This document shows positions 10,628 to 39,100 of a stretch of 64,000 bases of DNA, piece by piece. Source of the stretch: Ginglymostoma cirratum (lineage: Eukaryota). The position numbers were made by a program, and so were the translations under genes. The stretch is from NCBI GenBank assembly GCA_024137785.1, contig JAHRHZ010000066.1, forward strand, positions 1,410,491-1,474,490. The letters are read 5' to 3'. The notes beneath the pieces were generated by a model. The model saw only the letters and a list, made by a program, of their open reading frames with translations, did no database searches and had not been told where the DNA came from. Each line of letters starts with the position of its first letter. The first letter of the stretch is position 1.

Positions 10628-10701
10628 CTGGCAGAACGACTACAAATGAGGAGCTTGAAGACATGCTGGAGAGTGGGAATCCCGCTATCTTCACATCTGG
10701 G
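10628..10701 (+). CDS. STX1A: Syntaxin-1A internal exon (74 nt; Habc-SNARE linker), equivalent to human exon 7
   Basis: tttcAG acceptor and GTgagt donor; encodes (T)[24 protein letters not shown]; GNPAIF.SG fits STX1A rather than STX1B (GKLAIFTDD). Confidence 0.95.
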
Positions 10702-14420: not shown

Positions 14421-14558
14421 ATCATAATGGACTCGAATATAACAAAGCAGGCGCTGAATGAGATTGAGACACGACACCACGAGATCATCAAACTGGAAAA
14501 CTGTATCCGTGAGCTGCACGATATGTTCATGGACATGGCAATGCTGGTAGAAAGCCAG
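14421..14558 (+). CDS. STX1A: Syntaxin-1A exon (138 nt), N-terminal half of Qa-SNARE motif ending at the 0-layer Gln
   Basis: tctctcacAG / GTaaga; [46 protein letters not shown]; in frame with the previous exon. Confidence 0.97.
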
Positions 14559-18389: not shown

Positions 18390-18500
18390 GGTGATGTGGT
18401 CAACAGCATTGAGCAGAACGTCACCAATGCAGCGGATTATGTCGAACAGGCAAAGGACAGCACAAAAAAAGCAGTTAACTTTCAGGGTACAAGCAGACGG
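18390..18500 (+). CDS. STX1A: Alternative (duplicated) SNARE C-terminal exon 9A of syntaxin-1A, STX2/STX3A-like
   Basis: ctgtttcAG / GTaagt; 111 nt, phase 0/0, open; GDVVNSIEQNVTNAADYVEQAKDSTKKAVNFQGTSRR; 18/37 aa identical to the adjacent exon with all heptad layer positions kept. Confidence 0.9.
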
Positions 18501-18576
18501 GTAAGTGGCTGAAGAGAACACACTCTGAGAAGATCTGTTATTGTCATGTGTCTCTGCTCTTTTCCTTGATGCCCAG

Positions 18577-18687
18577 GGAGAGATGATAGACAGGATCGAA
18601 TACAACGTTGAGCACTCAGTTGACTACGTAGAGAGGGCAGTGTCCGACACGAAAAAGGCGGTTAAGTACCAGAGTAAAGCACGACGG
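18577..18687 (+). CDS. STX1A: Canonical syntaxin-1 SNARE C-terminal exon 9B
   Basis: gcccAG / GTaagt; 111 nt; [37 protein letters not shown]. Confidence 0.97.
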
Positions 18688-18959
18688 GTAAGTAGTGCAA
18701 GTATCTCCATCTCAGCATGTGGCATGGTCAACTCCATTTGTGAACCGTGCTTTTCCCAATCCCATCACAAGAGACCACAGTAAAACAATGTTTCTCAAGC
18801 CTTGTGTTCACATGATTGACCTGCAGACTATATCCATCCCCAGATACCCTGCAGCCTGTATCAGCTGCCAGTCTGCAATTCCCTGAACTTTTCTCCTGAG
18901 TTAAGGACACTGCCCCTCAATCTGTCTGGGTTTATTATCGATGGTGTATGTTCTGCATA

Positions 18960-19270
18960 AAATGTCACTGGACCGTTTACTCCTGAGGCTGAGGTTCAGA
19001 GGACATGAGTTCAAACCAATCCAGAGCAGCTAATGGAATTTAAATTCATTTAGTAAAAGAAAATCTGGAATTGAAAGCTAGTGTTTGTAATAATGACCAT
19101 GTAACTAGCATTGGTTTTTATAAAAACCATCTACAAGTATCTTCAAGGGAAGGAAATCTGCCATCTTCACCTGGTGTCACCTACATGTGATTCCAGTCCC
19201 ACAGTTACGTGGTCTATCCTTAACTGCTGTCAAGGCGACAGAGGGATGAGGGACAAATGTGGCCTTGCAA
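18960..19270 (+). mobile_element. tRNA-derived SINE, decayed
   Basis: aatgtcactggac...gagttcaaacc...ggaaggaaatctgccatcttcacctgg...; same family as 26840-27420 and 29200-29540. Confidence 0.65.
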
Positions 19271-21964
19271 AAAAATATAAAACAAAACTGGAGCTCTTGG
19301 CCCGTTGACACAATATGCTGTAGTAGAATATACACACGGGAGTGTTAGACTCAGTGAGTATATTTTGAAATATACATAGCACACCACAACTCAGTGGTGC
19401 AACCTTAAAACTAACCTTAATTTCTACCAATTTCTCCCCCTCCCTGATATTATTATGTTAGGGTGATACCATTGTTAAGTAATGTCTATATGTCACCACA
19501 GTGTAGTAGCAGGGAACAATTACGTCACTTTGCTAGAAACAGATCTTGGTGAGCTGAGAGTTATCTGAAGACTCAAGCACACATTTTTATTGAATGATGG
19601 TGAACACTTGACATGGCTCACCAGCTATTCAGAAAACTGTCTTGTAATGTATGCCCAGGCTTTCAATGGTATATCTGCAAAGACCAATCATACTTTTTAA
19701 CATGCACCAGGGAACCAAAAATATCAGGTAAGAATGTTAACAGATAGAAGACAAAGCCCATGTCCATGGAATCATGACAGAGAAACATTTGCTTTGCTGA
19801 CACTTATTGCATTCTGTGGTTTTTCCATTCCTTTTACCTATGCTTGGAGCCTCTGTGAAGCATTTCTCCCAAAAACTCTTGGATTGCTATCCCTTTCATG
19901 CACACTTTACCACACAAACCAGCTGGTAGTTAGCATTCCAATGCAACATCCATTACTCATGGTGAGCACTGTTGTGGCATCCTTGCAGAAAGTACCAGCT
20001 GTATTTGCAGTGGTGGTTAGTAGTATATTAGAGGCAAGGCTTCTGCATGTGGTGACTTGAACAACATTGAGTGAAATTACAGATAGTTGAACTAGGAAAG
20101 TAGCCGTACTAGACCTCGTACTGGGGAATGAGCCTGGCCAGGTGACGGAAGTTGCAGTGGGCAGCATTTTCTGGAACAGTGATCATAATTCTGTAAGGTT
20201 TAACATAGTTATGGATAAAGATAAGACTGGTCCTCAGGTGAAAGTTCTAAACTGGCTGAAGGCTAATTACAACAGTATTAGGCAGGAACTGGAGAAATTA
20301 GATTGGGGCAGCTGTTTGAGGATAAATCCACGTCTGACATATGGGAGCCCTTTAAAGGGCCAGTTAATCAGAGTTTAGGACCAGTATGTTTCTATGAGGA
20401 TGAAAGATAAAGATGGCAAGATTCAGGAACTCTGAATGACAAGAGCTATTGAAAGTCTCCTCAAAAAGAAAAAGGAAGTGCATGTCAAGTTTAGGAAACT
20501 GAAATTAGACAAAGCCATTGAAGAATACAGAGGAAGCAGGAAAGAATTTAAACAAGAAATTAGGAGGGTTAAAGTGGCCATGCAATGTCCTTGGCAAGTG
20601 GGATTAAGGAGAATCTCTAGGCATTTTATACATATATTAGGAGCAAGAGAGTAACCAGGAAAAGGGCAGGTTCAATCAAGGACAAAGGAGGGAATTTATG
20701 CATGGAGCCAAAGAAAGTGGGTGAGGTGTTTATTGAATATTTCACATCGATATTCACCAAGGAGGAGGACATGGATGATGCTAAGATTAGGGGTATGTTG
20801 GTATTCTCGGGCAGGTCGAGATTAGGAAGGAGGAGTTGTTGTGTGATTTGAAAACCATTAAGGTAGGGCCTGATGGGATCAAATCCAAGATACTTAGGGA
20901 GGCAAAGGAGAAGATTATTGGTGACTTGACAGAAATCTTTGTATCCTGTTTAGCCACAGGCGAGGCCTCAATAAACTGGAAGATAGCCAATGTTATTTCT
21001 TTGCATACACAGGGCAACAGAGATAATTGAAGAAATTATTGGCCAGTGAGACTTACATCAATGGTAGGGAAACTATTGGAGAAGGATTTGGGACATTATT
21101 TACTCACATTTGGAAAAGAATGGATTTATTAGAGGTAGTCAGCATGGCTTTGTGCAAGGGAGGTCCTGACTCACAAATTTGATTTGAGTTTTTTGAGGAA
21201 GTGACGAAGATGAATGACAAGGGTAGGACAGTGGATGCCATCTACATGTATTTTACTAAAGCATTTGACAATGTCCATCATGGTAGGCTAGTCCAGAAGG
21301 TTAAGTCACATGGAACCCATGGTGAATTGATAAGTTAGACGCAGCATTGGCTTGGTCATGGAAGGCAGAAGGTAGTTGCAGAAGGGTGTTTTTTTCTGAC
21401 TGGAAATCTGTGACCGATGGTATTCTGCGAGAATCAGTGCTGGGACCTCTGTTATTTGTAAAATACCTAAATCATTTGGATAAAAATATAGGTGATCTGA
21501 TTAATAAGCTTGCAGCTAACACAGAAATTGGTGGAGTTGTGGATAATGAATAAAGTTGTCACAGGATAAAGCAGGATATAGATCATTTGGAAGGTTGGGT
21601 GGAGTAGTGGCAGATGGAGTTTGATCTGGACAAGTAGGAGGTGATGTATTTTGGGAGGTCAAATGCAAGAGGAAGGCGTACAGTAAATGGCAGGACCTTT
21701 GGGAGCATTGAGATACAGAGGAATCTTGAGATGCAAGTCCATAGCTCCATAAAAGTGGTGACACAAATGCACGTGGATAAGGTTGTGAAGAAGGTGTATG
21801 GCTTGCTTGCCTTCATCGATCGGGGCATTGAATATAAGAATTGGCAAGTCATATTGCAATCAAACTTCAGTTAGGCCACATTTCAAGTATTGTGTGCAAT
21901 TCAGGTCACCAAACAATAGGAAGAGACTTTGGAGATGGTAACAATAGAGATTTACCAAGATATT

Positions 21965-22170
21965 AGAAAAAGCAAGATCTACAAATGCTGGAGCCAGAGA
22001 CAACACAGTATGGAGCTGGAGGAACACAGCACGCCAGGCAGCATGAGAGGAGCAGGAAATTTGATGTTTGGGTCAGGACCCTTCAGAAGACCCAACCTGA
22101 AACATCAACTTTCCTGCACATCTGATGCTGCCTAGCCTGCTGTGTTCCTCCAGCTCCACACTGTGTTGTC
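21965..22170. mobile_element. Palindromic Penelope-type insertion nested in CR1
   Basis: Inverted arms gacaacacagtatggagctggaggaacacagca / tgctgtgttcctccagctccacactgtgttgtc; flanks tttaccaagatatt (21951-21964) and tttgccaggaagtt (22171-22184) look like diverged copies of the CR1 word tttaccaggatgtt. Confidence 0.75.
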
Positions 22171-22442
22171 TTTGCCAGGAAGTTGCCTGGATTCGAGTGT
22201 ATCAACCACAAAGAGAGGTTGGACAAATCTGGATTGTTTTCGAACTTGGATGCTGAGGAACGACCTGATAGAAGTGTATAGTATTATAAGAGGCATGGAC
22301 AGAATGGATAATTGGAGTCTTTTACCCTACGGTGGACATATCAAATGCTGGGGGATATAAGCTTAAAATGAGAAGAGAAAAGTTTTAAAGGAGTCATGCA
22401 GGTTAGAGAGGGGGTGGTAGGTTCCGCAAGTGTACTGCCATG

Positions 22443-22938
22443 GGAGTCATACAGCATGGAAAAGGACCCTTCAGTCCAAACAGTCCACGCCAACCATGTT
22501 CCCAAACTAAACTAGTCCCACCTGCCTGCGTATGGCCCATATCTATCCTGTTCATGAACTTAGCTAAATGTCTTTTAAACGTTGTAACTGGCCCTGCATC
22601 CACCACTTTCTCTGGCAGTTCATTCTATGCACACATCATTCTCTATGTAAAAAAGAAGTTGCCTTATTTTTTAAATCTTTCTCTTCTCAGCTTAAAAACA
22701 TTCCCCCTAGTTTTGAACTCTCCCACCCCAGGGGAAAGACCCTTGTCATTCACCTTATCTATGCCCCTTATGATTTTATAAACCTCAATAAGATAACCTG
22801 TCAACCTCCTATGCTCCAGTGGAAAAGTCCCAGCCTTTCCACTCTATTCTTATATCTCAAACCTTCCATTCCCAGCAACATCCTGGCAACGTCCATTTCT
22901 GAACCCTCTCCAGTTTAATAATATCCTTGCTGTAACAG
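22443..22938 (-). mobile_element. CR1 3' fragment inserted in opposite orientation into the CR1 above
   Basis: Minus strand reads ...VDAGPVTTFKRHL.KFMN and a CR1 3' UTR; the host CR1 resumes at ggtggtagaagcag (~22940). Confidence 0.85.
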
Positions 22939-25900
22939 GGTGGTGGTAGAAGCAGATACAGTAGCAACATTTAAGAGACATTTAGAAAGATACAACCAGG
23001 CAGGGCATGGAGGGATACAGACATGTGAAGGCAGACGAGATTAGTTTAGAATGGCATCCTGATTAGCACAGACATGATGGGGCCAAGGGCCAGTTCCTGT
23101 GCCGTATTGTTCTATGTTCTAATTGGGAATTGAAAAGATACTGAGCATTACATTCCTCAAACTATCTTTCCAAGAGGTGTGCTAATGTTCATTCCACTGT
23201 CCAACCCATTATTTCACTCAATAATTTTTACCCTGAACATGCTTCCTTAATGCAGTCTATCCTGATCTAAAGTATTTAACATTTCAATGTAATCTAACCA
23301 CCTAAGCCTATTTTTAATCGGACCAATATATCTGACCTAATCTTTAACATTACATGTTGTCTCATCATTACGTGTCCTATTTTATTGTATTGAAAGACTC
23401 AGATCTCTCCCAACGTAATCTAATCTAGTCATCATATAATGGATCTGAGTGCAATAGATCCTTGTCAAATCTATACCGTTGCAATGTTTTATAAATAAAG
23501 CTAGCCTCATATCACTTATCCTGTTATATTATATGCCAATACAATCATCCCTAACAAAATCAGTCCAGTACAATCTGTCCAATTAGTGTATTTCAGTCTA
23601 ATATGTCCCAGCTGTTTTCTTGCCCCAGTACAAGCAACAGGCTCTCCTAGTTGATAAATATGGCCTGACATAAACAAAGACCTTTTCTCTACTGTAACCA
23701 CATGCTTTCACTTTGCACTCATTTGAGGATTTTTAGTTAATGTGATGTCTACTCCCCACTTGAGCCAATCTGAATGAGATTGCCAGTGTGGTATTAACCA
23801 TACCAGACAGGGTGTAACTTACTGCCATAAACCAACATACTTGGTGGCTTTGGGCTTGGTCAGGATTGATGTATGTTTTTTCCAAGATCTTGCAGCCAAC
23901 TGATGTATAAACTTCTGCTGCAATCGACCTCAAATCAAATTATACCTTTATCCTCTCCTGTGATGTTACTAGATTGAGTTAACAATATCTAGACACAATC
24001 AAACCAAAAATTACAATTAGCAAAGTCTTCTCCAGGACTATCCTGATATGATAGGACTTTGTACAATGTACCTAAGACCCCTATTTATCCCTCTTGTATT
24101 TATCCCAATATATTACTGTGGTTTATTCCATTCTGATACACCTTACAGAGTAGCCTAATCTATTACAATGGAAAGCATCCAGGATATATGTGCTTTCTAA
24201 TACCAAAATAAACACTAATGATAAGGATGGGAAGCAGACTTAAGGTTCGTATGAATTATAGCCACCAAAATTGGGTAGATGTATTTTGAACAGGGTATTG
24301 AAATCTTAAAATATCAGAATTCTGACTCCAACCTGCCTGCTTTTAGTTTCATCAAAGTGAGATGGGAATGGACAAACCAACTCAAAGTCAGAAGATTAGG
24401 TAGAAATATAAATATTTTAATGGAATTGCTTGCATAACATTTGATCTCCATTATGAGTTCACCCCAGGTCGAGGAGTTTTCCAGGCCTTCCTAAAGCCAA
24501 GATCTAAAAGGAGATGATGATTGAGAAGGTTCATGATGGATACATGTCACCACCTTCACTCAATCCTGCCCTTGGACACACCCCCAACAACCTTTCCATC
24601 CACTCCATAAGGTCAATGATCTCAGTCCCACTCCCTAACTCGAACAATCTGCCAGTGATCTCTCCATTCTCCCTCAATCCCCAATATTCCTATTAGATTC
24701 TAATCTTGCACTTGGCCCTCATTCACTTTTCATTTTGGATCCTAATCCTTCCTCTGATTGGGATCAACATCAACATCACTCTAGCCTTTTAATCTTCCAC
24801 TTGACTTCAGCCTACCTCTCGGCCATTTATCTCACCCTACTGCGGCTTTTCCAATCCTGCTGTCCCTTGTCTCTGTTCCCTGGTTATGGTCTGTCCTGAA
24901 GTCCTTCCTGCCTAATGGGCAGCAAAGATCTAGCTGCATATGATCAGTAAACAAATAAAAATAAAGCTGATTAGATCCTGCTATTAAATTTGTCAGGACC
25001 TGTAGGGAACTTGTTATTTCCTGACCTCCAATCAGACTTCTTATTTCTGAGTTCAGCTTGTTGTTTATGACTGCTAAACTGAGAGAGATTGCAGGAACAC
25101 AATGGAGTGCAATCTTGTTATTTGAAAATCCACAATATTCAAATACAAGCCTTACGACCTGACCTGTGTTCGAGTTAAAGACAGATGCTGTTGTATTCCA
25201 CAAATGTTAGAACCTTAATTGTGTGTCATGGAAATAGCATACAAACTGTTCTTTAAATATTTCCATTAAAGTTTCTGCTAAATTTAAGTTGCATTAATGT
25301 AAAATCCTCCATGATTGGTGCAAGCACGCAAGTAATAGAATGCAAATTTTAAATTTCAAAATCTCCTTGATATATTTAACAGTGATAACCTGCTCTAATT
25401 TTGTTTATAAAGCTTTAAAATGGGTTCATCACCAAAAATAAGCAAATTAGTAAATGTTCCAGTTTTCCACCTGTGAACAACCAGATTTAAAATCATAGAA
25501 AATAACAATTAAGCACGATACTGAGCCATTTCATAGTTTTGTTGGTGTGTGCTAATCAGCTCCTTACTGAATTGTGTTCTTTGTGTGATTAAACATGTTG
25601 TCCATGTCATATCACAATCTTCAGAATGTTACATTTCCAAACTGGGAAGCAGGGTCAGTTTGCCCGATGCAGGCAAATCAAAAGTCAAATCTTAGAAGCA
25701 AAGTTCATAAATAACCCAAATGTAAATAGTTTGGAATATGACCCACTAGTGTTTAAAGCTCGTTTGTGCAGTTCAGCTGATTCTGTCTGGATTGCACTGA
25801 TCTTACTGACATGAATGAGCAAAAATTTGATCCCCTCATTTTTACTAGCAATGAAAGTCAATAGATAAGGGCATGGTAGGAGTCAGTGAATATGGTTAGT

Positions 25901-26839
25901 ATCACAAACACCACCTTACTCATGAGGTTGTAATCCCAAATTTTAGAACTAGAAGCTCTTAGGCTGACTTGTATTGTATACAAATCCTTTTAACAAAGTT
26001 TAATGAAGATTGTTAAATTTGTTAAATGTTTTAGATAATCGACAGATGATTTATGTACTATGTTACTATGAGAAATATCAACTAGAACGGTTTCAAATTG
26101 TTCATGATTATACAGCTTCTTACATGGGAGATCGTGAATGGAAAATATTGAGGAAGTATGTGAAATGTATACCAACAGAAGATGATATTCAATAGGTATC
26201 TAAAGATAATTAAGGGTAAGAATAAATTAGAAGTAAAATAGTAGATGGAAGGTTGTAGTAAAATACCATTACAAACAAAAGCAAGTAAAATAATCGGAGA
26301 AGTGAAGAACACGAAATGTATGGGGAAGACATCAAAAGTGACAATGCAAGATTTATAACTGTGTACTCATTAAACAATGGCTGCAAATATATCAGTTTAC
26401 CTTAAATGATGGTGAAATGATGGTTCTGCAATTAAACAAATTCATCTTTACTCCAGGAGATAAGCAGGATTCACTGGAGTCTGAGTCACGTTTCCAGGGA
26501 CAAAGATAAAGGAGCGAGACAATATGTCAATCCTGATGGCTGTGGTCATTAAAAAGATAGAAAGCGCTTAGACAGTGTTACTGCACCTGACACTTTGAGC
26601 ACAAGGGTTTCAGGGAGTAGTAAGGCGTGAAGTCTCAACCATCTTTAATGAGTAGTTCTAGAGGATTAGAAAGTGGTTTACATAACTTTTCAGGTTTATA
26701 GTTTCCTTCTTGAAATAACAATTTTATGTCCATCATAGAAAAGGCCTTGAAAAGCATTTTGAAGTTTCAACAGGTTAACACTTGGAAAATTGTTACCATT
26801 TAATTGGAGAATGCTAGAGGAGGTCACATAAGGGAGGTG

Positions 26840-27420
26840 ATAGACTCATGATATTATCACTAGACTATTAATCAACAAACCCAGGTAATGTTCTGGAGAT
26901 AACAAAATGTGAAAGTGGAGGAACACAGCAGGCCAGGCAGCATCAGAGGAGCAGGAACGCTGACGTTTCGGGTCGGGACCCTTCTTCAGACTCTCTTTTC
27001 TGAAGAAGGATCCTGACCCGAAACATCAGCTTTCCTGCTCCTCTAATGCTGCCTGGCCTGCTGTGTTCCTCCAGCTTAACACTGTGTTAACTGACTCCAG
27101 CATCTGCAGTTCTTGCTTTCTTAATGTCCTGGAGACCTGGGTTTGACTCTCACCATGGCAGATGGTGGAACTTGAATTCAATTTTTAAAAAGTCTAATGA
27201 TGACTATGAAACCATTGTCAATGACAGGAAAAAAATGCATCCAGTTGGCTAATGCCCTTTAGGGTGGGAAATCTGACGTCCTTACCTGATCTGGCCTACA
27301 TATGATTCCAGACCCACAGCAATATGATTGACTCACTTGCCCTGTGGCCAGTTAGGGATGGGCAATGAATACTGGCCTAGCCAGCGACACCCACATCCTG
27401 TGATGAGTTGAAAAAGCATT
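26840..27420 (+). mobile_element. tRNA-derived SINE split by a Penelope-type insertion
   Basis: Head atattatcactagactatt...taatgttctggaga continues after the insert as cctgggtttgactctcaccatggcagatgg; tail ggcctagccagcgacacccacatcc. Confidence 0.75.
26900..27121. mobile_element. Palindromic Penelope-type insertion with 14-bp TSD and two opposed hammerhead-like cores
   Basis: TAATGTTCTGGAGA 26886-26899 and TAATGTCCTGGAGA 27122-27135; ~85-bp inverted arms; CTGAAGA-A-stem-GAAAC on both strands. Confidence 0.8.
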
Positions 27421-29199
27421 CACCTCCCTGCTAGAGTTTGTCACAGACCATACCAGTACCTTCCTAGTGGATGGGACAACAAATGGTATTATAAATTTGG
27501 ATTTTCACAAAGCTTTTGGTGAGGTTTTACACTAACAATTAATGGGTAAAGTAAGGAGTGATGGATCATGGGGTAAACATGATTCCAGTTAGAGGGTGCA
27601 GAATTCTGCTCAGCCTTACATTAGCAGAGAACCTGTGTACAAATGTAAAGAGGTTACACTATTGCTGTAAGTGGAGTTGATCTCACCTAGAGCCCTGGAT
27701 GCAATTCCATTGATTTGATCAGTTCCATAAAAGCCACAAACCAACCCTGGAATATTCAGTAACAGCACAAGAATCATACGGACTGTGATCGCTCAAATTG
27801 AAATGTACAATACTGATGTATAACTTCTTAATAGCCTATATTTCCCATTGTGTTCCCCCTACCATCCACCCCCTCAATTTTGCTCTGCAGTAATTTCATG
27901 ATGGATGTGACAAGGAGAGAAATAGAGCAGAGATTGATAACACCAATTCCCAGCCACTTTATTCCTGCTAGATGCATATTAACAAGGAAGTAATGATATG
28001 ATGCCATCCTATTTCTCATTTTCATGAGTTTTCATCACAGCACATTTTTTTTGGAATGCTGAAGGGAAATTTGGTTTGCAGAGACAAGCCTGCCTGGTTA
28101 TTGCTGCAGGTGAAACATATTTTACTTTTGCATTTGCTGCCTATTTTTCCATTTTTGATTAGTTGGCATTTTCCTTCACTTCCCTCTTTACTTTTAAGAC
28201 AACAAAGAGTGGGTTTTTCCCTCAGGGTTTCCACTGTATCTTTGCTTCTTGCAACAGGAAGAGGAACAGTTTCAGGGTTCTATGGGAATATGGTATCCAG
28301 ATGCCAACACCCACCCATCAGAGCACCCTTGGGGAATCAGTCCTACCTGTTTTTAAGTGACAAGAAATGCCTGAGGAAGGTTAATTTTTTGTCAGCTGTC
28401 AGAACTGCCATGCTTCAAACCAGTCTGCAGCCCACTTCTACCTCATCCACCAGTGTCTGTTATCACCAGCTCCCTTCATGTCTGTAATAATGTGATTTCA
28501 TACTTGCCGCTGTGCACATCTGTGACAGCCAAACATTGTGCACAGATGTGTATCAAGCAATGCACAGCTTGTTATTCTTTGGAACTAGTAATTTTGTCAT
28601 TCTGCCATTGACAACTGGTGCCAACATGATAGTACACTGGAATTCTATTGATTTTTCAAAGTCCAGTGATTGTTTCAACTCTAGGTTAATCATTGCTTCT
28701 CCTACATGCTGTTCGAGTGTTGGTAACTGTGTCGGAAAGGGTTTGAGGTGGTCCTAGTCTGAAAACAGCCATGTCCTGATATGTACTATGTGTAGACAGC
28801 CTGACCCTACATTGTTCTACGCCACAGACATAGCTGAGGGGAGAGCACTCATATTGCATTCTCTGGTTGTTCCTCGTACCAAGCACTGATCTGAGGGAAA
28901 GGAGAGGGAAGGGTTATATGGAAAGCAGTGAAGCACTGAATAATATTTGGCTGCAACTGAGTGGCAAATCCATCCACACAATAACAGACAGCTTTGTCCA
29001 ACCTAGGGGTTAAAGACTTCTATGTTAGTCTGAATCTCCATGGAAGAAGCAATGGCTTCTTTAAGAATGCTGTAGGATGATTTCTATGAGAGATGTTTCC
29101 GAAATTGTTGCATGTGGACTAAAGTGCTTGGCACTGTTATATGGTCCTGTTCCAAGGGTCCCCATTATTCATAGTACTGACAGATGAACTAACAAAGAG

Positions 29200-29540
29200 G
29201 TGACAGTGACGTATTGCTAATGTCACTACACTAGTATCCGGAGACCCAGGCTAATGCTGTGGGGACGTGGGTTCAAATGTCACCCTGGCACTTAATGGAG
29301 GTTGAAAGCTGGTCTCATTATTGGTGACCATGACCATGATTATTAGTTCAGGAAAGGAAGTCTGCCACCCTTAATTGGTCTGGCCTACATGTGGCTCTAC
29401 ACCTGCAGCAATGTGGTTGACTCTTAATTAATTACATTCAGAAATGGTCATGGTCTAGTAAGCCACGCAATTCAAGGGCAGTTGGGGATGGGCAGCGAAT
29501 GCCGACTACCCAGTGATGACCACATTGCATGAAAGACCAC
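29200..29540 (+). mobile_element. tRNA-derived SINE, decayed
   Basis: aatgtcactacactagtatccggagacccaggctaatgct...gggttcaaat; ggaaaggaagtctgccaccctta...ggtctggcctacatgtg. Confidence 0.7.
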
Positions 29541-29999
29541 TTAAGGGACTCAGCTCACTGCAGTTGGGACTAATCCAACTGCAGATTGGCCGCCCACTGT
29601 GTCGGTGTGTACAGTAACTGAAACCGTGCAGGCAGCGTAGGCTGGACATTCTGAAGGACAGGCCTGTTGAGAAACATGCCCCTACCCATATTGCTGATCC
29701 ACCCCCACCCAATCTGACCACAAACCCCACGTGGTGAAATGCCCCATCCCCACATTCCTTACTTGGGATTCTTCACCAGATAACACCCCTGAGACCTCAA
29801 CATCATTCCACCCATAGAGTGGGAAATATTGAGGGCTCTATTACACATTGGGTATGTATTACTCCATAGCATTTGAGAGACAGCAAGTGCTTGGCTTGGA
29901 CTCTGTCACGTTCTGAATGTTTTGTTTTCTGCTGCAGTTTTCTTGTGCTGTATTCTTGCATGCTGAGCTTCATCTGGTTGTTTTCTTCCCTTCCCACAG

Positions 30000-30077
30000 A
30001 AAAAGATCTTTATAGGAATTTGCATTGCAATAGTACTGTTGGTTATCATCATTGTTCTGGCTGTGTATCTCAGTTAA
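30000..30077 (+). CDS. STX1A: Alternative last coding exon 10A: second transmembrane anchor of syntaxin-1A
   Basis: Strong acceptor ttttcttcccttcccacAG; phase 0; KKIFIGICIAIVLLVIIIVLAVYLS* = KK plus 23 uncharged, mostly hydrophobic residues, as expected for a tail anchor after ...RR. Confidence 0.88.
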   Translation, partial: KKIFIGICIAIVLLVIIIVLAVYLS

Positions 30078-30489
30078 TGCTCCAAATCAACAGAATCATC
30101 CTGATTGAAACTAAAGCTGGGCTTTTGTTCCACCATCATCATGCAGCACTCTTGTGGAACAGAGAGACGGCAAGACATCATTACTGGGCATTTCCATTTT
30201 GTTTTGTCAAACATCTATCACGAGGTGATGTTCGTAGCCACCGAGATCATTACTCAGATTTCAGTTCCACCCTCCAGTCCGGACTTTTTCTTTTGGCATC
30301 ACTGTAAGCTGAAGAACAACATCAGGACTCGTGCTGCTGTTTCTCCTCTATTGTTTATTGGTTATTCTTCTTTGAGAAACATTATAAGAATGAACGTCGC
30401 CTTAACAGGCCATGGTTTCATCAACTTACTGATCGACTTTGAATCCAGCTGACCTTCTGCTGTAATCAGGTTTTTTATCATTTCTAATC

Positions 30490-30620
30490 AATCTCTTCCT
30501 TTGCTTCTCTCTTCTCTCCTCCTTTCTCCCCTTCTGTTTTCCTCATCCTTCCTCTCTTTTTTCTCTTCCCTTCTGTCTCTCTCTTTTTCTCTCCCCCCAT
30601 CTCTCTCCATTCCCTCTTAG
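30490..30620 (+). repeat. ~130-nt CT-rich polypyrimidine tract ending in TAG
   Basis: Nearly all C/T; no AG between 30470 and 30618. Confidence 0.85.
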
Positions 30621-30949
30621 ATTTATCCCCTAAGTGTGTAAAATCCACACAATTCCAGTTAGAGATACTTACCCCAATGCAAAGATAAAATGCGCACTAA
30701 TACAGATCAATGTGATTAAGCTGTAAAGAAGCTCCACTGATGTGAATAATACAAACTGAGCTTCCATTCCTACTGTTATCCTCCTTCAAACAGAAACAAA
30801 GCAAGGTTAAAAAATGCGACAGGGGAAGAACAGGGAAACGCAGTTAGAACAGATACCTCCACATGAAGGCTTACAAACACATTGGGACATCTGCTCTCCC
30901 CTTTTTTAATATTTTACATTCCTAGAAAGACAAAAGGGTAAACCTGTAA

Positions 30950-32190
30950 CTAGAGTCATAGAGGTCTACAGCATGGAAACAGGTCCTTTGACCCAATTTG
31001 CCCATGCTGTCCAGTTTTCACAGTTAAAGTAGTCCCATTTGCCTGAGTTTGGTCCATACCCTCCATACCAATCCCATCCATGAACCTGTCTAAATCTTTC
31101 TTAAATGACAAAAATGTACTCGTTTCCACCATTATCTCTGGCAGCCTGTTCAAGACATTCGCCACCTTCTGTGTGGAAAAAATTTCCACCTTTTGGACCT
31201 TTTTGTATCTCTCCCCTCTCACTTTAAATCTATTCCCTCTAGTTTTAGACTCCCCTACCATGGAGAAAAGCTGTTGGCTATCCACCTTATCTGTGTCTCT
31301 TGTGATTTTATAGATTTCTATAAGGTCACCCCTCAATCTCTTATGCTCCAGGGAAAATGTCCCAGCCTATCCAACTTTTCCTTTTAACGCAACCCTTCCA
31401 GTCCATGTATAGAATCCCTACAGTGTGGAAGCAGGCCATTCAGCCTGTTGAGTACACACCAACCCTCTGAAGAGCAGCCCACTCAGCCCCACCCACTACC
31501 CTATTCCTGTAAACCTGCATTTACCATGGCCAATCTGCCTGACCTGCACATCTTGGATTGAGGGAGGAAACTGAAGCAACTAGAGGAAACCCACGCAAAC
31601 ACAAGGAGAACATGCAAACTCCACACGGACAGTTGCCCAAGGCTGGAATTGAACCCAGGTCCCTGGTGCTGTGAGGCAGCAGGACTAACCACTGTGCCCC
31701 CCATTGACATCCTAGTAAATCTTGTCTGCACTCTTTCTAGTTGAATATCCTTTCTATAGTACAGTGATCAGAACTGCATGCAGTAGTCCAAGTGTGGCCT
31801 CACCAACATCTTGTACAGCTGCAACAGGATGTCCCAATTCCTATACTCAGTACTCTGACTGATGAAAACAAGCATGCCGAAAGCCTTTTTCACTAGCATG
31901 TCTACCTTTCACTCCACTTTCAAGGAGATATGAATGTTTACCCTTAGATCTCTTTGCTCCAAAACACTCCCCTGGGCCCTGACATTGACTGTGTAACGCC
32001 TACCCTGGTTTGACCCACCAAAATACAACGTCTTACATTTATCTGAATTAAGCTCCATCTGCCATTCCCTAGCCCACTTGGCCCAGTTGATCAAGATCTT
32101 GCTGCATTCTCAGATAACTTTCCTCACTGTCCACTATACCACCAATCTTGGTTTCATCCATTAACTCACTAACCATACCTCCTACATTCT
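30950..32190 (-). mobile_element. 5'-truncated CR1 LINE interrupted by an HE1-like SINE
   Basis: Minus-strand fragments DETKIGGIVDSEE, WQMELNSDKC..LYFG, RGDLIEIYKI, TRGNRFKV. Confidence 0.9.
31408..31702 (-). mobile_element. HE1-like tRNA-derived SINE
   Basis: Minus strand ggcacagtggttagtcctgctgcctcacagcaccagggacctgggttcaattcc...gtgtggagtttgcatgttctcc; same family as 54133-54448. Confidence 0.85.
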
Positions 32191-33819
32191 CAGAACAAAA
32201 TAATTCAGAATGAAAAATATGTTTAACGACAAGAATCAATACAAATACACAATAGGAGAATGTACAGGAAAAGTGCAACAGATACGGATCCAGATACACA
32301 TGACTATGCAAACAGGGTTACATAGGTAGAATTTATGGAACATAAGACTGTTTAGTTAACTGCACCTGCATTTAAAAAAAGTTCTCCTGACCTTTTGCAA
32401 TAATTTTTAAAGTTATGAGCCCATGTTATAAGTCTAACTACCAGTGAATTTACATGTTCCTTACTTACCAAATCAAACCTCCTTCCACCTCTTCCTAATT
32501 TTCAACGCAGTAACTAAAAATTGCTCACTTTCTTCAGTTTCTCCTCAAAACTGAAATATCTTGATGCTAGAATAATCTCTTTTGCCCTTGAAATGTTCCT
32601 AAAATTTGGCATGCAACAGCAGAAAGCATTTTGTGGTTAGCACAAAGGGGTGGCACTCACTCATGATTTTGAAGAAAGTTGCCTAAAATAAGTTAGTGGG
32701 TTCTGCAGTGTCAATTTCCCCTAATCTGATGCAGCTTTCAACTTGACATCAATAGAGACTTTGTTGTTTCCTCAGTCCTTGAAGTCACCAAAGAGGCTGA
32801 AAAGCCATCTAGGTTGAAGAATTCAGACTGACAACAAGATGAGGAAATTAAAAGTCACAAATTATAATTCAGCTTTCATTGACAACAAAATAAAGATAGG
32901 AACATTCACGTGCAATTAAAGTAAAATCTGAAATATCAACATTAATAAAAAGAAAATAAATTATTTTAAAAATCTATGGGTTTTTTTTTAAATAAAGGAA
33001 ATGGAACTTATGAAATTAGCTTTTCACTGCCAAAGAGCTTGTTCAGGACTAATTATGATTTAAAGTGCCAATTAAAATCTTAGTTTACACCTCATTCGAC
33101 ATTGTCAATTTCAATGAGTTTACAATTGAAACAGTTCATTGGAAGTTGAAGTTTACACCAGCACACTGATTTTGTGTTGAATGCATTTGTGATGACTGCA
33201 ACAGCACACCCTGTGCAGCTTTTAATGTTTAACTGTGTGTCTGTAGCCCACCAAAAATTGCTGTCAGTTTTAAACATTGACTACCACTGCTGGTAGTTTT
33301 ATCATCATTGCAACCTCAAACGCTTCCTCGGTACTGCTCAATTTCCATCATTATAACTCTGGGCTTGGCTATAGGGTGTAATATCAAAATTACCAAGGCA
33401 GCTAAGTGATTTCAGTTGGATGTAGACAGGATAATAGATTGGGCAGATAGATATCAGCTAAAGTTAATGTGGATAAATGTTAAGTGATTCAGTTTTTGAA
33501 GGAAGAATAGAGGACAGAAGGTCTCTAAATTGAGTAGAGGAATGGATGGAATTCACACGCAAAAATCTTTAAAATGGAAAGGAACAATTGACAAGACTGT
33601 AAAAGAAAAATTTTCTTAATTTGGTACAAGAATAAAAGAGGTAATGCTAAATTGATGCAATTCATTAGCCAGGTAGCAGATGGAACAATAGTTAAAGTGA
33701 AGTCTAGGAGATACAGTTTCTTTCACCAATTCTACCTTACCTATAGATGTTGGGTACAGTCTCATTAGCTGCAGGCACCCTCTAATACCCTATCTGATTT
33801 GACAATTTGCATGAGTACT

Positions 33820-34230
33820 TCACAAGAAAATAGAAGCGGGGGAGAAGGCCATTCAGCCTTTCAAGCCTGCCCCACTATTCAATAAGATGATGGCTGATCT
33901 GCACCAGGCTTCAACTCATCTTTCGTGCCAACTCCTCGTTGCTCTCAACTCCTTGATATTTCAGAAATGCATCTACATCCTCTTTAAATGCTTGCAATGA
34001 TCTAGCCTCCACGACTCTCTGGGGTAGACAATGTCAGATATTCACTACCCTCTGAAAGAAAAAATTTCTTCACAACCCACTTTTAAATGTGTCCATTACT
34101 CTGTAATATGTCTCTTAGTTCAAAATGCCCCAACTACAGGAAACATCTTTACATTTACCGTACCAACCCCGCTCAGGGTCTTGTATATTTCAAAAAGATC
34201 ATCCTTATTCTTCTCTAACAAATGAAGGTC
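33820..34230 (-). mobile_element. CR1 3' fragment
   Basis: ggccattcagcc..tcaataagatgatggctgatct...ttcactaccctctgaaagaaaaaatttct (reverse-oriented CR1 end). Confidence 0.75.
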
Positions 34231-35019
34231 TAACTTGTTTACAAAATCTATACTGACTCTGTTTAGCTGTGATCAGCTTTTCTAACTGTGCTACTGTTTG
34301 TTCCTTAATAATGGACTCCAACAAGTTTTCCAGTGACAGGTATGAAAATCTTGGTAGTCACCCCCTCCAAATCCAGCACCCTGAGGGGAATTATAGAGCC
34401 CCCTACCGTAATGCTGACCTATATGACCTAACACTATCCTGAGTAATGCATTTACTGACCCATAATCAACCAAACGAAGAGTTACTTTTGCACAGCAAAA
34501 TATGGCTATAATGGGTAAGGCCTGTAAATTTTATTCATCCTGTGCCATAACAGCGGGGATTGGAATAATTGTTCTGTTTTGCAATTGGATATATACAGCA
34601 TTGTTACAGAATTAGCATACACTGAATTACTTTAATGAGGCTGTTAACATGGTATTGTATTAAGGGGTAAGAGTAAACTCATTTTAGTAACAAAAACAAT
34701 ACTATTACTCTTAAAATCATTGCTACAGGAACAAGGAACCCTTTAAGTGTTGGAACCCCTTTTCCCATCTCCACAATTAACAGAGGTGTCACTGACCACA
34801 TTGAGCCATTGGGATGAATTTTTATTCCAAAATGGACAGAATGGCCCTGGTAACATTGCCTCTCCCCATACAGCTTTCTGCCACCCACTTTCTATTCCCA
34901 ATTCCAGATAAAAAAAGAAGTGGGCAGCATTTCCTTTCCATGGTAAACTCAGTGAGATGCGGGAGTTGGGAGAAGTCTTTGGTCAGGTCAGAAGGTAAAC
35001 AAGGTGAATTAATATATAC

Positions 35020-35520
35020 ATATATAGGGTAGTTGGGCAGATACCGTGATGTCAGGCAGATAGGGTGTTGTTGGGCCTTTTCAGGTGATCTAGGGTAGTC
35101 CTTGGTCAGACCGAGGACCAGTTGGATTGCACTGGGGAGTTTTATTGGGTCTGGTCAGGTGAGATGTTGGGTGTTTGGGTAGGGATAATGCTGCTTGGGG
35201 CTAGTTGATGGTCAGTGAGGGGCAGTTAGGTGAGGTCAAGGGAGGGCTAATCAGGAGGTATAGGGTGGTCTGTAGGTAGCTGGTGGGTTGTCATGGTGAG
35301 TAATTGAGTACGGCTGGGGAAATAATCGAGTGGTGGGAGTGTAGACAGATATGGGATACGTGGGAAGAATATTTTGGTGTTAGGGAGGGTAGTTAATTGG
35401 CCCGGGTGTAAATCAGATTAGCTTGAAGGCTAGTTGGATCAGGTCAGGATATTGCAAGTGGTCCAGGGATAATCAGGATGTGATTTGAGAGATCAAATGT
35501 GGGGCTAATTTGAGCTACTT
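35020..35520. repeat. G/T-rich low-complexity or decayed tandem repeat
   Basis: Recurrent ggtcagg / gggtagttgg words and strong strand skew; a mirror-image C/A-rich tract lies at ~41750-42290. Confidence 0.55.
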
Positions 35521-37158
35521 TGGCTAGCTAGTGAATTAGGTAAGGTATTAAACCAACTAACATTTCTTGGTTAAAAATCCAGACAAGTTTCTTGTGTCTG
35601 GCCTTGTATTTCCACCTTGAACTCAGAGTTGGAGACATTTGTGGGTGTCCCAAGTAGCAGATGTCGGCCCATTGGAAGTTTAAACTTGCTAGGCACCTTC
35701 CCCATGTCTGTGTGTCAGGACCTCCACAAGGTCGTACATCTCCCTCTGTACGTCCCATCTCCAATTATCTAGAGACTGGACAATTTATGTCGTTGAGTTC
35801 CATTGCTGTGGAATGTGTAGAATAGTCTGCCAATGCAATACCAGTCATTGTGCACCTATGCCCGAGATGAATCTCTAGATCAGTGTTCCACTTGACTGCA
35901 AATCCACAGCTCTGCCCATTACGTGTGGCTAATGTGATCATTCTGCAGATGAATTATCCCTTCTTTATCTTATTCTGTTTTTTTTGCATCTCCATTACAG
36001 CTGTCACTTTATCTTCATCCATTTATGAAGAACTGGCTCAGTGTTTTTCCTTGATTGTATATTTTATGGCTGCTTCGCTATTGTTTGATAAAATATAACA
36101 TTTCAAAAACATTTTTCATGGAACTTGTTTACAGCACGTGCAGGTGGTGAACAGTCACACACTCTGTGGGAAACAGTTGAATATTTCTTATAGACCAGTA
36201 CTAAACTCCACAGCAACAATTCTATAGGCATCGAGGCTAAAGGGAAATCAGGTTTGAAAGGTGGGCCACAATTTTAGGGGAAATGTGGGCAAACTGAATA
36301 TTGTTTTTCATGATACCGTGTAGTGCCTGATGATGAAGATCGTATTGAAGGAGAACAACACACACTCACACCACATAATGCACACTCAGCAAATAGAACA
36401 TGTACAGCACATACCTCTTGAGTAGTATTATGGTAAGATACTAATGATGCAAAATTGAGCTCAGTTAAGCCATGAATGCCAGCGTCCTAATTTTCAAACT
36501 AACTTCAAGTTTTCCAAATCTATAAAATATTCAGGCCTAGCCAGTATATCAGTCAGCAACCAGTTAATAAAAGTCAAAGCTTTACAAAAACAATGCATTG
36601 AGTTCTAAACTGAAAAGGTACAAACTGGACAAACTCTTTACTTTGCCCTTTATTTCATGTAAGTGTTAATATGAAGAGTTTGTAAAGAGTGGGATTTTCA
36701 TGTCAGATGTTCATTAAGGTGAGACATTCTAGTATAGGGTGCAGAAGGGGGAAGGGTCTTTGAAGTGAGTCAGTTTCTACTGGAAGCAGTTGGGTAATCT
36801 ACAATGTATATGGCATTTGGAATATGATGGTTTGACGTTTGTAGTGGGTTGGTAATATGACGCTTTTAATGAGAGGCTGTGCAGTAGGGGTGGTTCATAA
36901 CAGAGGGGTACTTATGTTGTGAGATAAATTTGTAACATTGGAAGGTTGTTAATATTGGAGGTGTTTGTAATGTGTTTGAAAGGGTTGGTACATTTCATAA
37001 AGCCAGTTTATTAATGTAAAGGGAAGATTTTAATCTCTGTTGGAATTGTTCATCTTCCATTCTGTAAAGATCCTGTTCATTAATTGTAAAATAAAATCAC
37101 CAGAACTAACTATTTCTCCTCTTCTTCCTGTCATGCTGCTTGGATGTGGGGCCTGCAG

Positions 37159-37239
37159 AAGAAGATTATGATCATTATATGCTGTGTGGTGCTGGGGGTC
37201 GTCATCGCCTCCACAGTTGGGGGAATATTTGGATTTTGA
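37159..37239 (+). CDS. STX1A: Canonical last coding exon 10B of syntaxin-1A (transmembrane anchor)
   Basis: ACTAAC branch motif 37105-37110, pyrimidine tract, ctgcAG; KKIMIIICCVVLGVVIASTVGGIFGF*; IASTVGGIF fits STX1A. Confidence 0.97.
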   Translation, partial: KKIMIIICCVVLGVVIASTVGGIFGF

Positions 37240-39100
37240 AAAACACAAAATAGGAGAGAATCTACCAATGTGATGTGGGCAGTTCAGCCACTTTGTGAGA
37301 ATGAAGTGACTTTCACTCAGTAACACTGAGAAAGGTTTCTCTGCATGACTATCTAGCATTACTTCCTTTACTGGTCCTGCTCTTTCTGGCTGTTAAGGTA
37401 TGGTAACATTTATTTTTTTTCTTTAATTTCTTTTTCAATGATGCGCTGTTTGCCATAAACACATGAAAATTTGGCCCTGGAAAAAAAAACTCTTCACATT
37501 TAAAGGGATTGATCTTAACCCAATGATTGCCAAAGCCAAAGAAAGCCCACTTAACACCAACAAACACAGCGGCTGGAGTCAACATTTTATAAGACACTGA
37601 TCACAAAAAGGCAATATCTTTTTTAGAAACTCAAATTAGTGTGCACAAGTTTTCAAATCTTGCCAAGGTTGGAAGAATGCAGTGATCCGACATCTCATCA
37701 ACATAATGGTAACCCACTGGACCAGTCTGAAGACCATGATCCCAACAACCTGTATTGTGGAAATTCTTATCTTCATAACATTTCCATAGATGGAGGCGTG
37801 ATCTGGTCTGAAAATGTTCTGCTTTAAGTGTAAAACTTGATGTTTGTTACTGTGGGCGAGGACCTGCCAGACTGTCTTTGAAGCCTCTCTTCTGATCTCA
37901 GCCTTATTCCTTAGCTAATTACAGTAATTTTTCATTCACTGTCATTTCTTCATGTGACGAAGAATCACTGATGAAGATTCTCTCAAGTGGTGCTATCGCT
38001 GCCTGTGATGTTAGAGAAAAGGCTGACAAGATCTGAAGAGTATCTTTAAAGGATTCAGCTTTTTAAACAAAAAAAAGTGAAATGAGAATGGAACAATTCA
38101 AATAAGTTGTCATCAATATATTTTATGTACTCTGCTCTGGTAAAAACAAAATCAGGAGCTGGGCCGGTGAACCAATAACAGTTCTACCAGTCAAAAAATA
38201 AGTTATTTCGGCTTACTCCAAGTGGAAGCGGAACCTTTGGAAAATATACACTTCACATCCATCTCTAATTTTATATAAGGTGCCCTCAGTAAGGAGCAGT
38301 TTCCATTTCCTATTTAACCTATGACCTAAACAGAGAAGAAGCTCTCATTTAAAATCCATAAAGGGCTTGTATTAGGAGATCTGCACCTTGTCTTTAGTTT
38401 TACATTCAGAATTCTAATTTGTTTTAATCCCATGTGACGTGAAGCTTTTATTCTGGCTGTTTTACAAATATTACCCACTTGTCTAGTTTTACCAAGAATA
38501 CACTGGTCCTTACCAGACGCCAGCATTGCCATTGTGCAGTCCTGGGCAGCTAGGTATCCAAGGGCTTTAAAGAGCAGTTAGTCAAGACTTGCCACTCTGC
38601 ACTTGGGTATGGCAGCTCCTTTGGGTTGTTGAGGTGATGTCAGTCTGTATGTGATGCAGCAAGTTCTGTTGCCAAATTTCTTCCAGTCTTAGTAAAAGTA
38701 CATTTTATTTATGCAATTTATGTATGGAAAAGAAGTAACCAGATTTTTAAAATTCCAGCTTTTTGTTGTCTATTCCAGCAGTGGTGATGCAAGAAGGCTT
38801 CCTACGCAGGGCGCTGACATGGTGCCATGAACCAATTCACTAAAAGCCCCTGATCAGTTATGTGTACTTTACAGTTTTTATGTTTTAAAGTTCCAGTTAC
38901 AGCTATCCAGTTCAATCAATTTCAGTTGCATTACCTCAAACCTCAGTATTTTGCACATTTGAGCTATTTCAAACTCTGCACTTTTTTTCTATGTTTTTAC
39001 CATAATATAAAATTACTGAATTTTTCCTTCTCTGTTTTATTGTTACATTGCCCTATTTCATGCCTTATTACATTTACTTATAAACACTTTCCCTTAGAGT
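37240..39100 (+). other. Probable 3' UTR of the exon-10B isoform (end not determined)
   Basis: Repeat-poor, AU-rich sequence after the stop codon; the first AATAAA I noticed is at 40959, so the true end is uncertain. Confidence 0.5.

What the first reader, a model, noticed from the sequence alone, without database searches (positions are those of the whole stretch)
30000..30077. Hidden second transmembrane last exon resembling an STX2 tail
Seen: KKIFIGICIAIVLLVIIIVLAVYLS* lies behind a strong polypyrimidine acceptor 7 kb upstream of the canonical TM exon and is not shown in this frame in the ORF track. It has one Cys instead of the CC pair and lacks the small-residue C-terminal ASTVGG stretch. 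From recall, one human STX2 tail (KLMFIIICVIVLLVILGIILATTLS) has the same length and FI-x-IC...LA-xx-LS pattern. Inference: altered palmitoylation, sorting or fusion-pore behaviour plus a different 3' UTR. A run of AATAAA at 32889, 32944, 32955 and 32991 is a candidate poly(A) region.
Basis: partly seen in the sequence, partly recalled or inferred. Interest (0 to 1): 0.78.

Follow-up and report, generated by a model that had tools for sequence, protein, structure and literature searches.

The report
Fish syntaxin-1A has a second ending
This shark gene for the nerve-fusion protein syntaxin-1A carries a second copy of its last two exons, spliced together in RNA-type contigs of three other species and on record across fishes, which likely yields a syntaxin-2-like, less tightly clamped fusion protein that land vertebrates appear to have lost.

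Summary
The exon at 30000-30077 is real, but it is only half of the feature. The gene is syntaxin-1A. Contigs from three other organisms join into base 30000, and the joined letters are not the canonical exon 9. The gene reads 8-9b-9a-10b-10a, so the alternative form swaps the SNARE C-terminal half, juxtamembrane segment and anchor together, as in STX3A/3B. The 9b and 10b types appear in automatic database models of ray, coelacanth, sturgeons and teleosts (43 and 35 of 74 fish rows) and in 0 of 45 tetrapod rows. Exon 9b keeps the SNARE layers but carries STX2-type surface residues, and loses K260 and C272. An exon tree groups 9b with STX2 and STX3A, and 9a with STX1B and STX3B (37 columns). 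This suggests a duplication older than the gene split. Function and tissue are inferred. The poly(A) site is unproven. Ten literature searches found no description of this fish form. The scan noted a similar layout in an algal syntaxin.

The parts
10628..10701 (+). STX1A shared coding exon ('exon 7'; start approximate)
   Evidence: translation matches STX1A linker sequence, GT donor
14421..14558 (+). STX1A shared exon 8, SNARE N-terminal half, ends at zero-layer Q226
   Evidence: AG/GT ends, phase 0; same peptide in shark STX1A records
18390..18500 (+). Duplicated alternative exon 9b: SNARE C-terminal half and juxtamembrane start, residues 227-263, STX2-like surface residues
   Evidence: tblastn E 2e-9 and 49% identity to exon 9a; CAG/GTAAGT ends, 67 of 111 bases equal to 9a; Pfam SNARE 33 bits, cut-off 26.8; its last 30 bases are the loose ends of the bridging contigs
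18501..18576 (+). 76-base intron between 9b and 9a; candidate branch points 28-46 bases from the donor; read-through gives V-S-G-stop
   Evidence: retained in an X4 contig spanning 18471-18687; read-through models P0004, P0009
18577..18687 (+). Canonical exon 9a (neuronal-type SNARE C-terminal half, ends KARR)
   Evidence: 36-37 of 37 residues equal in tetrapod STX1A rows
29975..29999 (+). Polypyrimidine tract and CAG acceptor of exon 10b
   Evidence: 17 of 20 pyrimidines; contigs of X4, X5, X9, X12, X16 begin to match at 29999
30000..30077 (+). Alternative last coding exon 10b: 25 residues, transmembrane anchor, single Cys271, TAA stop
   Evidence: 21 of 25 equal in Narcine, 13-14 of 25 in four ray-finned fishes, 9 of 25 in Latimeria
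30078..31374 (+). 3' UTR of the 10b form, at least this far (runs into LINE/SINE-like repeats)
   Evidence: X4 contig of 1423 bases maps 29999-31374; X16 contig goes on 1301 letters beyond 30427
32847..33076 (+). Candidate poly(A) signal cluster for the 10b form (4 AATAAA, 3 ATTAAA); use not shown
37159..37239 (+). Canonical last coding exon 10a (CC pair, weaker acceptor with 10 of 20 pyrimidines)
   Evidence: an X4 contig enters at 37158 with 29 foreign letters before it

Best explanation
The shark syntaxin-1A gene holds two versions of its last two coding exons (order 8-9b-9a-10b-10a); exon 9b is spliced to the 30000 exon in contigs of three other organisms, which would give a 288-residue syntaxin-1A with an STX2-like SNARE end and anchor that is predicted to fuse membranes with weaker synaptotagmin clamping and less palmitoylation, likely for non-synaptic secretion. 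SHOWN: both exon pairs, their splice sites and phase; the 9b-to-10b joint; conservation from ray to coelacanth and teleosts in database models; intact hydrophobic layers; the residue changes D231N, R232S, Y235Q, E238T, V248K, S249D, K256N, K260T, C272I. INFERRED: (1) 9b and 9a exclude each other, probably sterically, because the 76-base intron puts its candidate branch points within 46 bases of the 9b donor; (2) choosing 10b with its proximal poly(A) site ends the transcript before 10a; (3) the protein behaves like the engineered STX1A chimera that carries the STX2 C-terminal SNARE half (smaller primed pool, unclamped spontaneous release) and is at most singly palmitoylated; (4) it serves non-neuronal or constitutive exocytosis; (5) the exon pair was duplicated before STX1A, STX1B, STX2 and STX3 split, STX3 and fish STX1A kept both versions, STX2 kept the 9b type, STX1B the 9a type, and tetrapod STX1A lost the 9b/10b pair.
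For: Junction: loose letters before 29999 in X9, X12 and X16 (organisms E, F, G; three studies) match window 18470-18499 at 29, 29 and 27 of 30 and do not match the end of exon 9a; the contigs carry 893, 599 and 909 letters upstream, as a spliced mRNA would. Records: Narcine P0003, Latimeria P0014, sturgeons, tarpons, eel, bonytongues, herring, carps, catfish and percomorphs have 9b+10b ends; among the best 120 hits, 43 of 74 fish rows have a 9b-type exon, 35 a 10b-type tail (36 by pattern, one false match, P0069, dropped), 28 both; 0 of 45 tetrapod rows have either. Layers: 6 of 8 layer residues equal 9a, the others I to V and S to A. In 37 fish 9b rows N231 stands in 33, K or R248 in 33, no E238 in any, K260 in only 5. 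Published tests: the STX2 C-half swap (Q226-255) cuts the primed pool and triples spontaneous release, D231 and R232 matter most (PMC10957171); D231, E234, E238 contact synaptotagmin-1 (PMC11213007); a basic residue at 260 is needed for full C271/C272 palmitoylation (PMC9183232). Tree: 9b+STX2+STX3A against 9a+STX1B+STX3B, support 96/97; a clade of 9a+9b+STX1B rejected, p-AU 0.006. STX3 records have the same order, 3A-type exon first.
Against: The junction was not seen in the window's own species: X1 covers the acceptor unspliced (29934-30402), as does X3. All runs are 'RNA?' by guess, contigs only, tissue unknown. Pairing is not strict in database models: 9a+10b (P0001, P0023, P0026, P0044, P0107, P0112), 9b+10a (P0055, P0099, P0109) and 9b+9a in tandem (P0024, P0040, P0043, P0075) all occur. 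By raw identity STX2 exon 9 is closer to 9a than to 9b (human 25 against 21 of 37; own shark 62% against 51%). The tree has 37 columns, 9b rows are fast and not one clade in the free tree, four long rows were dropped, and a 3A+3B clade was not rejected (p-AU 0.13). With invertebrate rows the split is weaker (86/90 and 92/90). Published effects point two ways: D231/R232 loss raises spontaneous release, K260 and C272 loss lowers it. Tetrapod absence rests on protein records only; no tetrapod or lungfish STX1A DNA was searched.
Confidence: 0.7

Rival explanations
1. Exon 10b is an independent alternative last exon used freely with either exon 9, so a main product is the neuronal SNARE domain with only the anchor swapped.
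For: 9a+10b models in catshark (gene prediction P0001), sturgeon, eel, bonytongues, carps and catfish; 7 of 35 fish rows with a 10b tail lack a 9b-type exon; both donors are phase 0; X4 has a contig that ends exactly at the 9a donor.
Against: 3 of 3 bridging contigs come from 9b; 28 of 35 rows pair 10b with a 9b-type exon; human STX3 junction counts follow 9A/10A and 9B/10B pairs (PMC8263458).
Confidence: 0.2
2. The isoform is real, but exons 9b/10b arose by a tandem duplication inside the STX1A lineage and resemble STX2 and STX3A by convergence or relaxed selection.
For: Such duplications recur: crustacean and other unnamed invertebrate-like syntaxin rows have tandem exon-9 copies that do not join the vertebrate 9b group; the scan noted the layout in an alga. 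STX2 exon 9 is closer to 9a by raw identity; only 37 columns; 9a is nearly invariant, so fast rows may attract each other.
Against: AU test rejects 9a+9b+STX1B as one clade (p 0.006), split support 96/97; shared N231 and K248-E/D249; 10b equals the human and bird STX2 tail in length and at 11-12 of 25 positions against 8 of 25 for its own 10a; same exon order in STX3.
Confidence: 0.25
3. The pair is a decaying relic whose transcripts are mostly unproductive (retained 76-base intron, early stop) and have no protein function.
For: Shark models ending V-S-G after 9b (P0002, P0004, P0009, P0010); intron-retaining contig in X4; 9b is far more variable than 9a, with Cys at layer +8 in 11 of 37 rows; missing from tetrapod rows.
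Against: Frame, length and layer pattern are kept from ray to teleosts; no listed substitution or indel falls in 30000-30077 while many fall in the UTR just behind (36 and 10 rows were not shown); full spliced 9b-10b contigs exist in three organisms.
Confidence: 0.05

Closest known systems
Syntaxin 3A/3B splice pair (STX3; PMC11476516, PMC8263458)
   Same: Shared exons 1-8, then alternative exons 9 and 10 that swap the SNARE C-terminal half and the transmembrane anchor from the zero layer on; one version neuronal-type, one not; 3A-type exon 9 lies first.
   Different: Host gene is STX1A. In STX3 the non-neuronal form is the common one and the neuronal type is retina-specific. STX3A's anchor has no Cys, 10b has one. 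Kept in mammals, whereas STX1A 9b/10b is absent from the tetrapod rows seen.
Syntaxin-2 (own genome contig C99; human record P0292)
   Same: N231, K248, acidic 249, no E238; one STX2 tail has the same 25-residue length, Cys271 and 11 of 25 identities.
   Different: A separate gene. One exon 9 found there (30,100 of the 100,000 bases fetched were N). STX2 keeps K260. The N-terminal 226 residues here are STX1A.
Engineered STX1A-2(Cter) chimera (PMC10957171)
   Same: STX1A body with an STX2-type SNARE half from Q226 on; the natural exon border falls at the same residue.
   Different: The natural form also changes the juxtamembrane segment (K256N, K260T) and the anchor, and its residues are not those of mouse STX2.
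C. elegans unc-64 exons 8a/8b (PMC4946901)
   Same: A syntaxin-1 gene with two alternative anchors, one mainly neuronal and one non-neuronal.
   Different: Only the anchor changes there; no alternative SNARE half is described in the passages read.
Medicago SYP132A/C and an algal SYP1 (from earlier scan note e1-7340802, not checked)
   Same: Duplicated terminal exons holding the SNARE end and anchor.
   Different: Plant and algal genes, a single last exon, independent origin.

Membership tests
Syntaxin-1A gene | Habc, linker and SNARE N-half of STX1A type, with the canonical exon 9 and CC anchor | tested here: met
   Exons 7, 8, 9a, 10a; near-identical shark records named syntaxin-1A; P0003 matches solved Syntaxin-1A at E 1e-123
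Qa-SNARE, tail-anchored | SNARE motif with zero-layer Gln and intact hydrophobic layers | tested here: met
   Q226 ends exon 8; 9b scores PF05739 33 bits over cut-off 26.8; layers +1 to +8 read V I V A V A T A
Qa-SNARE, tail-anchored | Basic juxtamembrane segment and one C-terminal transmembrane helix | tested here: met
   R262 R263 K264 K265 kept, K260 lost; 19-residue hydropathy 3.61 ending at the stop; hydropathy only, no topology predictor
Qa-SNARE, tail-anchored | Forms a four-helix complex and drives fusion | not testable with these tools
   No assay; no complex prediction was run
STX3A/3B-type paired terminal cassette | Duplicated exon 9 of equal length starting right after the zero layer | tested here: met
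   18390-18500 and 18577-18687, both 111 bases, phase 0
STX3A/3B-type paired terminal cassette | Alternative exon 9 spliced to its own anchor exon | tested here: met
   9b-to-10b joint in 3 of 4 runs, other organisms; not seen in the own-species run X1
STX3A/3B-type paired terminal cassette | Strict mutual exclusion and strict pairing | tested here: inconclusive
   Cross-paired and tandem models exist in fishes; short intron suggests steric exclusion in the shark
STX3A/3B-type paired terminal cassette | Tissue-specific use of the two forms | not testable with these tools
   Runs are coded, contigs only, tissue not given
STX3A/3B-type paired terminal cassette | Common descent of the STX1A and STX3 exon pairs | tested here: inconclusive
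   Split by type 96/97 and STX1-internal origin rejected (p 0.006), but 3A+3B clade not rejected (p 0.13), 37 columns
Syntaxin-2 gene | STX2-type exons upstream of exon 9 | tested here: not met
   The genome's STX2-like gene lies on C99, exon 8 76% identical; the window's shared exons are STX1A

The most novel reading that the evidence does not exclude
The ancestral vertebrate syntaxin-1 gene made both the clamped synaptic t-SNARE and the general secretory t-SNARE by switching one exon pair. After gene duplication the two splice forms were sorted into STX1B (neuronal type) and STX2 (general type), while STX3 and fish STX1A kept the switch, and tetrapod STX1A became neuron-only by losing it. 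Fishes would then carry a natural, regulated version of the STX1A/STX2 chimera.
Probability: 0.5. Interest if true: 0.7.

Novelty: new member of a known kind. Interest (0 to 1): 0.55.

Why it matters
STX1A is treated as the fixed neuronal t-SNARE. A conserved fish isoform that replaces the segment controlling synaptotagmin clamping and palmitoylation gives a natural test of those published mechanisms in a living vertebrate (carps have it; zebrafish itself was not checked). It offers a concrete route by which neuronal and general syntaxins arose from splice forms, and it warns that fish stx1a knock-outs, probes and antibodies may hit two different proteins. The layout itself is known from STX3 and the sequences sit in automatic annotations, which limits the surprise.

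Tried and rejected
(1) Laying X1, X3, X4, X5 on 18450-38400: the joint table was swamped by repeats (1396 rows not shown), so no exon joint could be read there. (2) No RNA holder listed on record; all are guesses. (3) A protein search with the 25-residue tail alone was not possible (40-residue minimum). The two short searches found only 3 cartilaginous-fish proteins each; the bony-fish forms appeared only with the full-length query (best 120 of 3553 listed). (4) Own-genome searches found two multi-exon syntaxin-1-group genes, this one and an STX2-like gene on C99, plus intronless STX11/19-like frames; STX1B, STX3 and STX4 were not found. The assembly may be incomplete, so this is not read as loss. 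(5) No second exon 9 in 100 kb of the STX2 region, but 30,100 bases were N, 5,000 of them between exons 8 and 9. (6) Poly(A): depth falls after 33101 in X3 and X5, X4 has no cover at 32436-33101, X1 has cover beyond; inconclusive. (7) Splicing-factor motif counts around the exons gave nothing clear. (8) Rfam: 0 matches in the window. (9) Mammalian models with an acceptor some 90 bases before exon 9a (P0090) were considered as a remnant of 9b; no sequence likeness (1-2 of 37), dropped. (10) Ten literature searches, seen as listings with abstract starts, showed no paper on a fish or shark STX1A 9b/10b form; most subscription papers are not in the library, and no supplements were read, where isoform tables might list it. 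One recalled structure paper was not held. (11) No structure or complex prediction was run.

Full report
Observation. The stretch 30000-30077 reads KKIFIGICIAIVLLVIIIVLAVYLS* straight after a CAG acceptor with 17 of 20 pyrimidines. It is the only one of 88 strong acceptors in the window, both strands, that leads into a 20-40 residue frame of hydropathy 3.0 or more. The window is single-copy at this place in a 4.36 Gb genome. The canonical anchor exon is 37159-37239.

The gene. Coding exons lie at about 10628-10701, 14421-14558 and 18577-18687. They match shark records named syntaxin-1A, and the ray protein P0003 matches solved Syntaxin-1A chains at E 1e-123. In full-length shark records exon 8 ends at residue 226, so mammalian numbering applies. 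The genome's STX2-like gene is elsewhere, on C99.

What splices into 30000. Twenty-two of 24 listed runs hold part of 30000-30480; none is on record as RNA, 16 of the holders are guessed RNA. I laid 7 of them. In one search, contigs of X4 and X5 start at 29999, while X1 (listed under the same organism code as the full holders) and X3 run unspliced through the acceptor; the joint table was swamped by repeats. In one search, on the repeat-free stretch 29780-30435, contigs of X9, X12 and X16 (three organisms, three studies) enter at 29999 with 893, 599 and 909 letters before it. Their last 30 letters match window 18470-18499 at 29, 29 and 27 positions, not the end of the canonical exon 9. X4 showed only an unspliced contig and one that starts at 29999.

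The missed exon. 18390-18500 is a second exon 9 (9b): 111 bases like the canonical 9a, CAG and GTAAGT ends, 49% protein and 67 of 111 base identity to 9a, 76 bases upstream of it. It scores as a Pfam SNARE motif over the cut-off. The gene therefore reads 8-9b-9a-10b-10a. The 9b+10b product would be 288 residues and differ from the canonical form from residue 227 on.

Conservation. Database models hold the same ends in Narcine, Latimeria, sturgeons, tarpons, eels, bonytongues, herring, carps, catfishes and percomorphs. Among the best 120 of 3553 hits, 74 rows are fish, 45 tetrapod and 1 mite. 43 fish rows have a 9b-type exon, 35 a 10b-type tail (one false pattern match dropped), 28 both; no tetrapod row has either. 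None of the listed tetrapod members of two STX1A clusters (15 listed each, of 146 and 190) had them, though a form this different would tend to cluster apart. The order 9b then 9a holds in fish tandem models. Cross-paired models (9a+10b, 9b+10a) and tandem 9b+9a models also exist, so pairing is a tendency, not shown to be strict. These are automatic annotations, not curated isoforms.

What changes in the protein. The eight layer positions stay hydrophobic or small (6 equal, I230V, S240A), so a four-helix bundle is expected (inference). Surface and membrane-side residues change: D231N, R232S, Y235Q, E238T, V248K, S249D, K256N, K260T, C272I. Over 37 fish 9b rows, N231 stands in 33, K or R248 in 33, E238 in none and K260 in 5. 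These are the positions tested in mouse neurons. Swapping Q226-255 of STX1A for STX2 cut the primed pool from 0.5 to 0.2 nC and nearly tripled spontaneous release, with D231 and R232 the main single contributors (PMC10957171: abstract, one results section, passages). D231, E234 and E238 lie at the synaptotagmin-1 interface (PMC11213007, passages). A basic residue at 260 is needed for full palmitoylation of C271/C272, whose loss lowers spontaneous release (PMC9183232, passages). The two effects oppose each other, so the safe prediction is a syntaxin poorly tuned for primed, clamped synaptic release. That points to general or non-neuronal secretion, as for STX3A (PMC11476516, PMC8263458, passages) and UNC-64B (PMC4946901, passages). 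Tissue could not be read from the coded runs.

How the choice may work (inference). The 76-base intron has candidate branch points 28, 40 and 46 bases from the 9b donor. Distances under about 50 bases block splicing of neighbouring exons (recalled rule), which would make 9b and 9a exclusive in the shark. In line with this, an X4 contig retains the intron and several shark models read through to V-S-G. Exon 10b has the stronger acceptor (17 against 10 of 20 pyrimidines), so it would be the default unless skipped. The first AATAAA after its stop is at 32889, in a cluster of four (27 of 5000 local shuffles, post hoc); contigs show the UTR to at least 31374 but do not fix its end.

Origin. The 10b tail equals the human STX2 tail of P0292 in length and at 11 of 25 positions, a bird STX2 tail at 12, its own 10a at 8, and the other STX2 and STX3 tails ending in G-L-S-V-G at 2-5. 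A tree of 27 vertebrate exon-9 peptides (four long rows left out: Toxotes and Clupea 9b, egret 3A, one unnamed 3A-like row) splits by type: 9b with STX2, STX3A and a hagfish row labelled Syntaxin 4, against 9a with STX1B and STX3B, support 96/97. A clade of 9a+9b+STX1B is rejected (p-AU 0.006); a clade of 3A+3B is not (0.13). The 3A/3B labels are my assignment from record order, the Cys-free anchor and recall; several rows are unnamed. Against: 37 columns, fast 9b rows, raw identity of STX2 higher to 9a (25 against 21 of 37), weaker support with invertebrates, and tandem exon-9 copies in crustacean records, which show that such duplications recur.

Comparison and verdict. It works like the STX3A/3B switch and is a member of the STX1A gene, not STX2. 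Ten searches of the held library found no paper on this fish form; subscription papers and supplements were not seen. The scan's own notes hold a similar layout in an alga and nothing for this sequence or place. The isoform is very likely real (about 0.95); paired use with STX2-like, non-synaptic behaviour about 0.7; origin before the gene split about 0.6. New member of a known kind, interest 0.55.

Noticed in passing
window 30147-30452: A second CAG acceptor inside the 10b UTR opens a 101-residue anchor-less frame; Stegostoma models P0005 and P0007 use it after 9b and 9a (88 of 97 equal). Indels in X9, X12 and X16 fall in it, so it is probably not conserved far. It would parallel soluble STX3S.
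   Followed up: partly
window 18501-18512: Read-through of the 9b donor gives V-S-G-stop, a 266-residue soluble form present in several shark models and as a retained intron in one X4 contig.
   Followed up: partly
G000:C99:41662446-41681990 (L007, L003, L010-L011): STX2-like gene: exon 8, one exon 9 and a last exon at 41681910 with Cys in the same register as 10b; no second anchor exon found in the unmasked part.
   Followed up: partly
G000 whole-genome searches: No STX1B, STX3 or STX4 exon was found, although STX1B exon 9 should be nearly identical to the query; assembly gap or loss is open.
   Followed up: no
G000:C267, C59, C32 (L005, L008, L009): Three intronless syntaxin frames of about 290-300 residues, STX11/STX19-like by recall.
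   Followed up: no
proteins P0112, P0113, P0120, P0235, P0242 (carps): In these cyprinids the normally invariant exon 9a has diverged (26-28 of 37 equal), while 9b persists; STX1A may be shifting to the non-neuronal role there.
   Followed up: no
proteins P0041, P0058, P0061, P0067, P0077 (percomorph fishes): Their exon 9b has Pro near 252 and Cys at layer +8 (11 of 37 rows), a possible new palmitoylation site or a shortened helix.
   Followed up: no
proteins P0154, P0156, P0165, P0221, P0135: Crustacean and unnamed invertebrate-like syntaxin-1 records also hold tandem copies of the exon-9 segment.
   Followed up: partly
window 30951-32146 and 50218-51201: LINE-like reverse-transcriptase fragments and a SINE-like repeat (labels recalled); the first group lies inside the probable 10b 3' UTR.
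   Followed up: no
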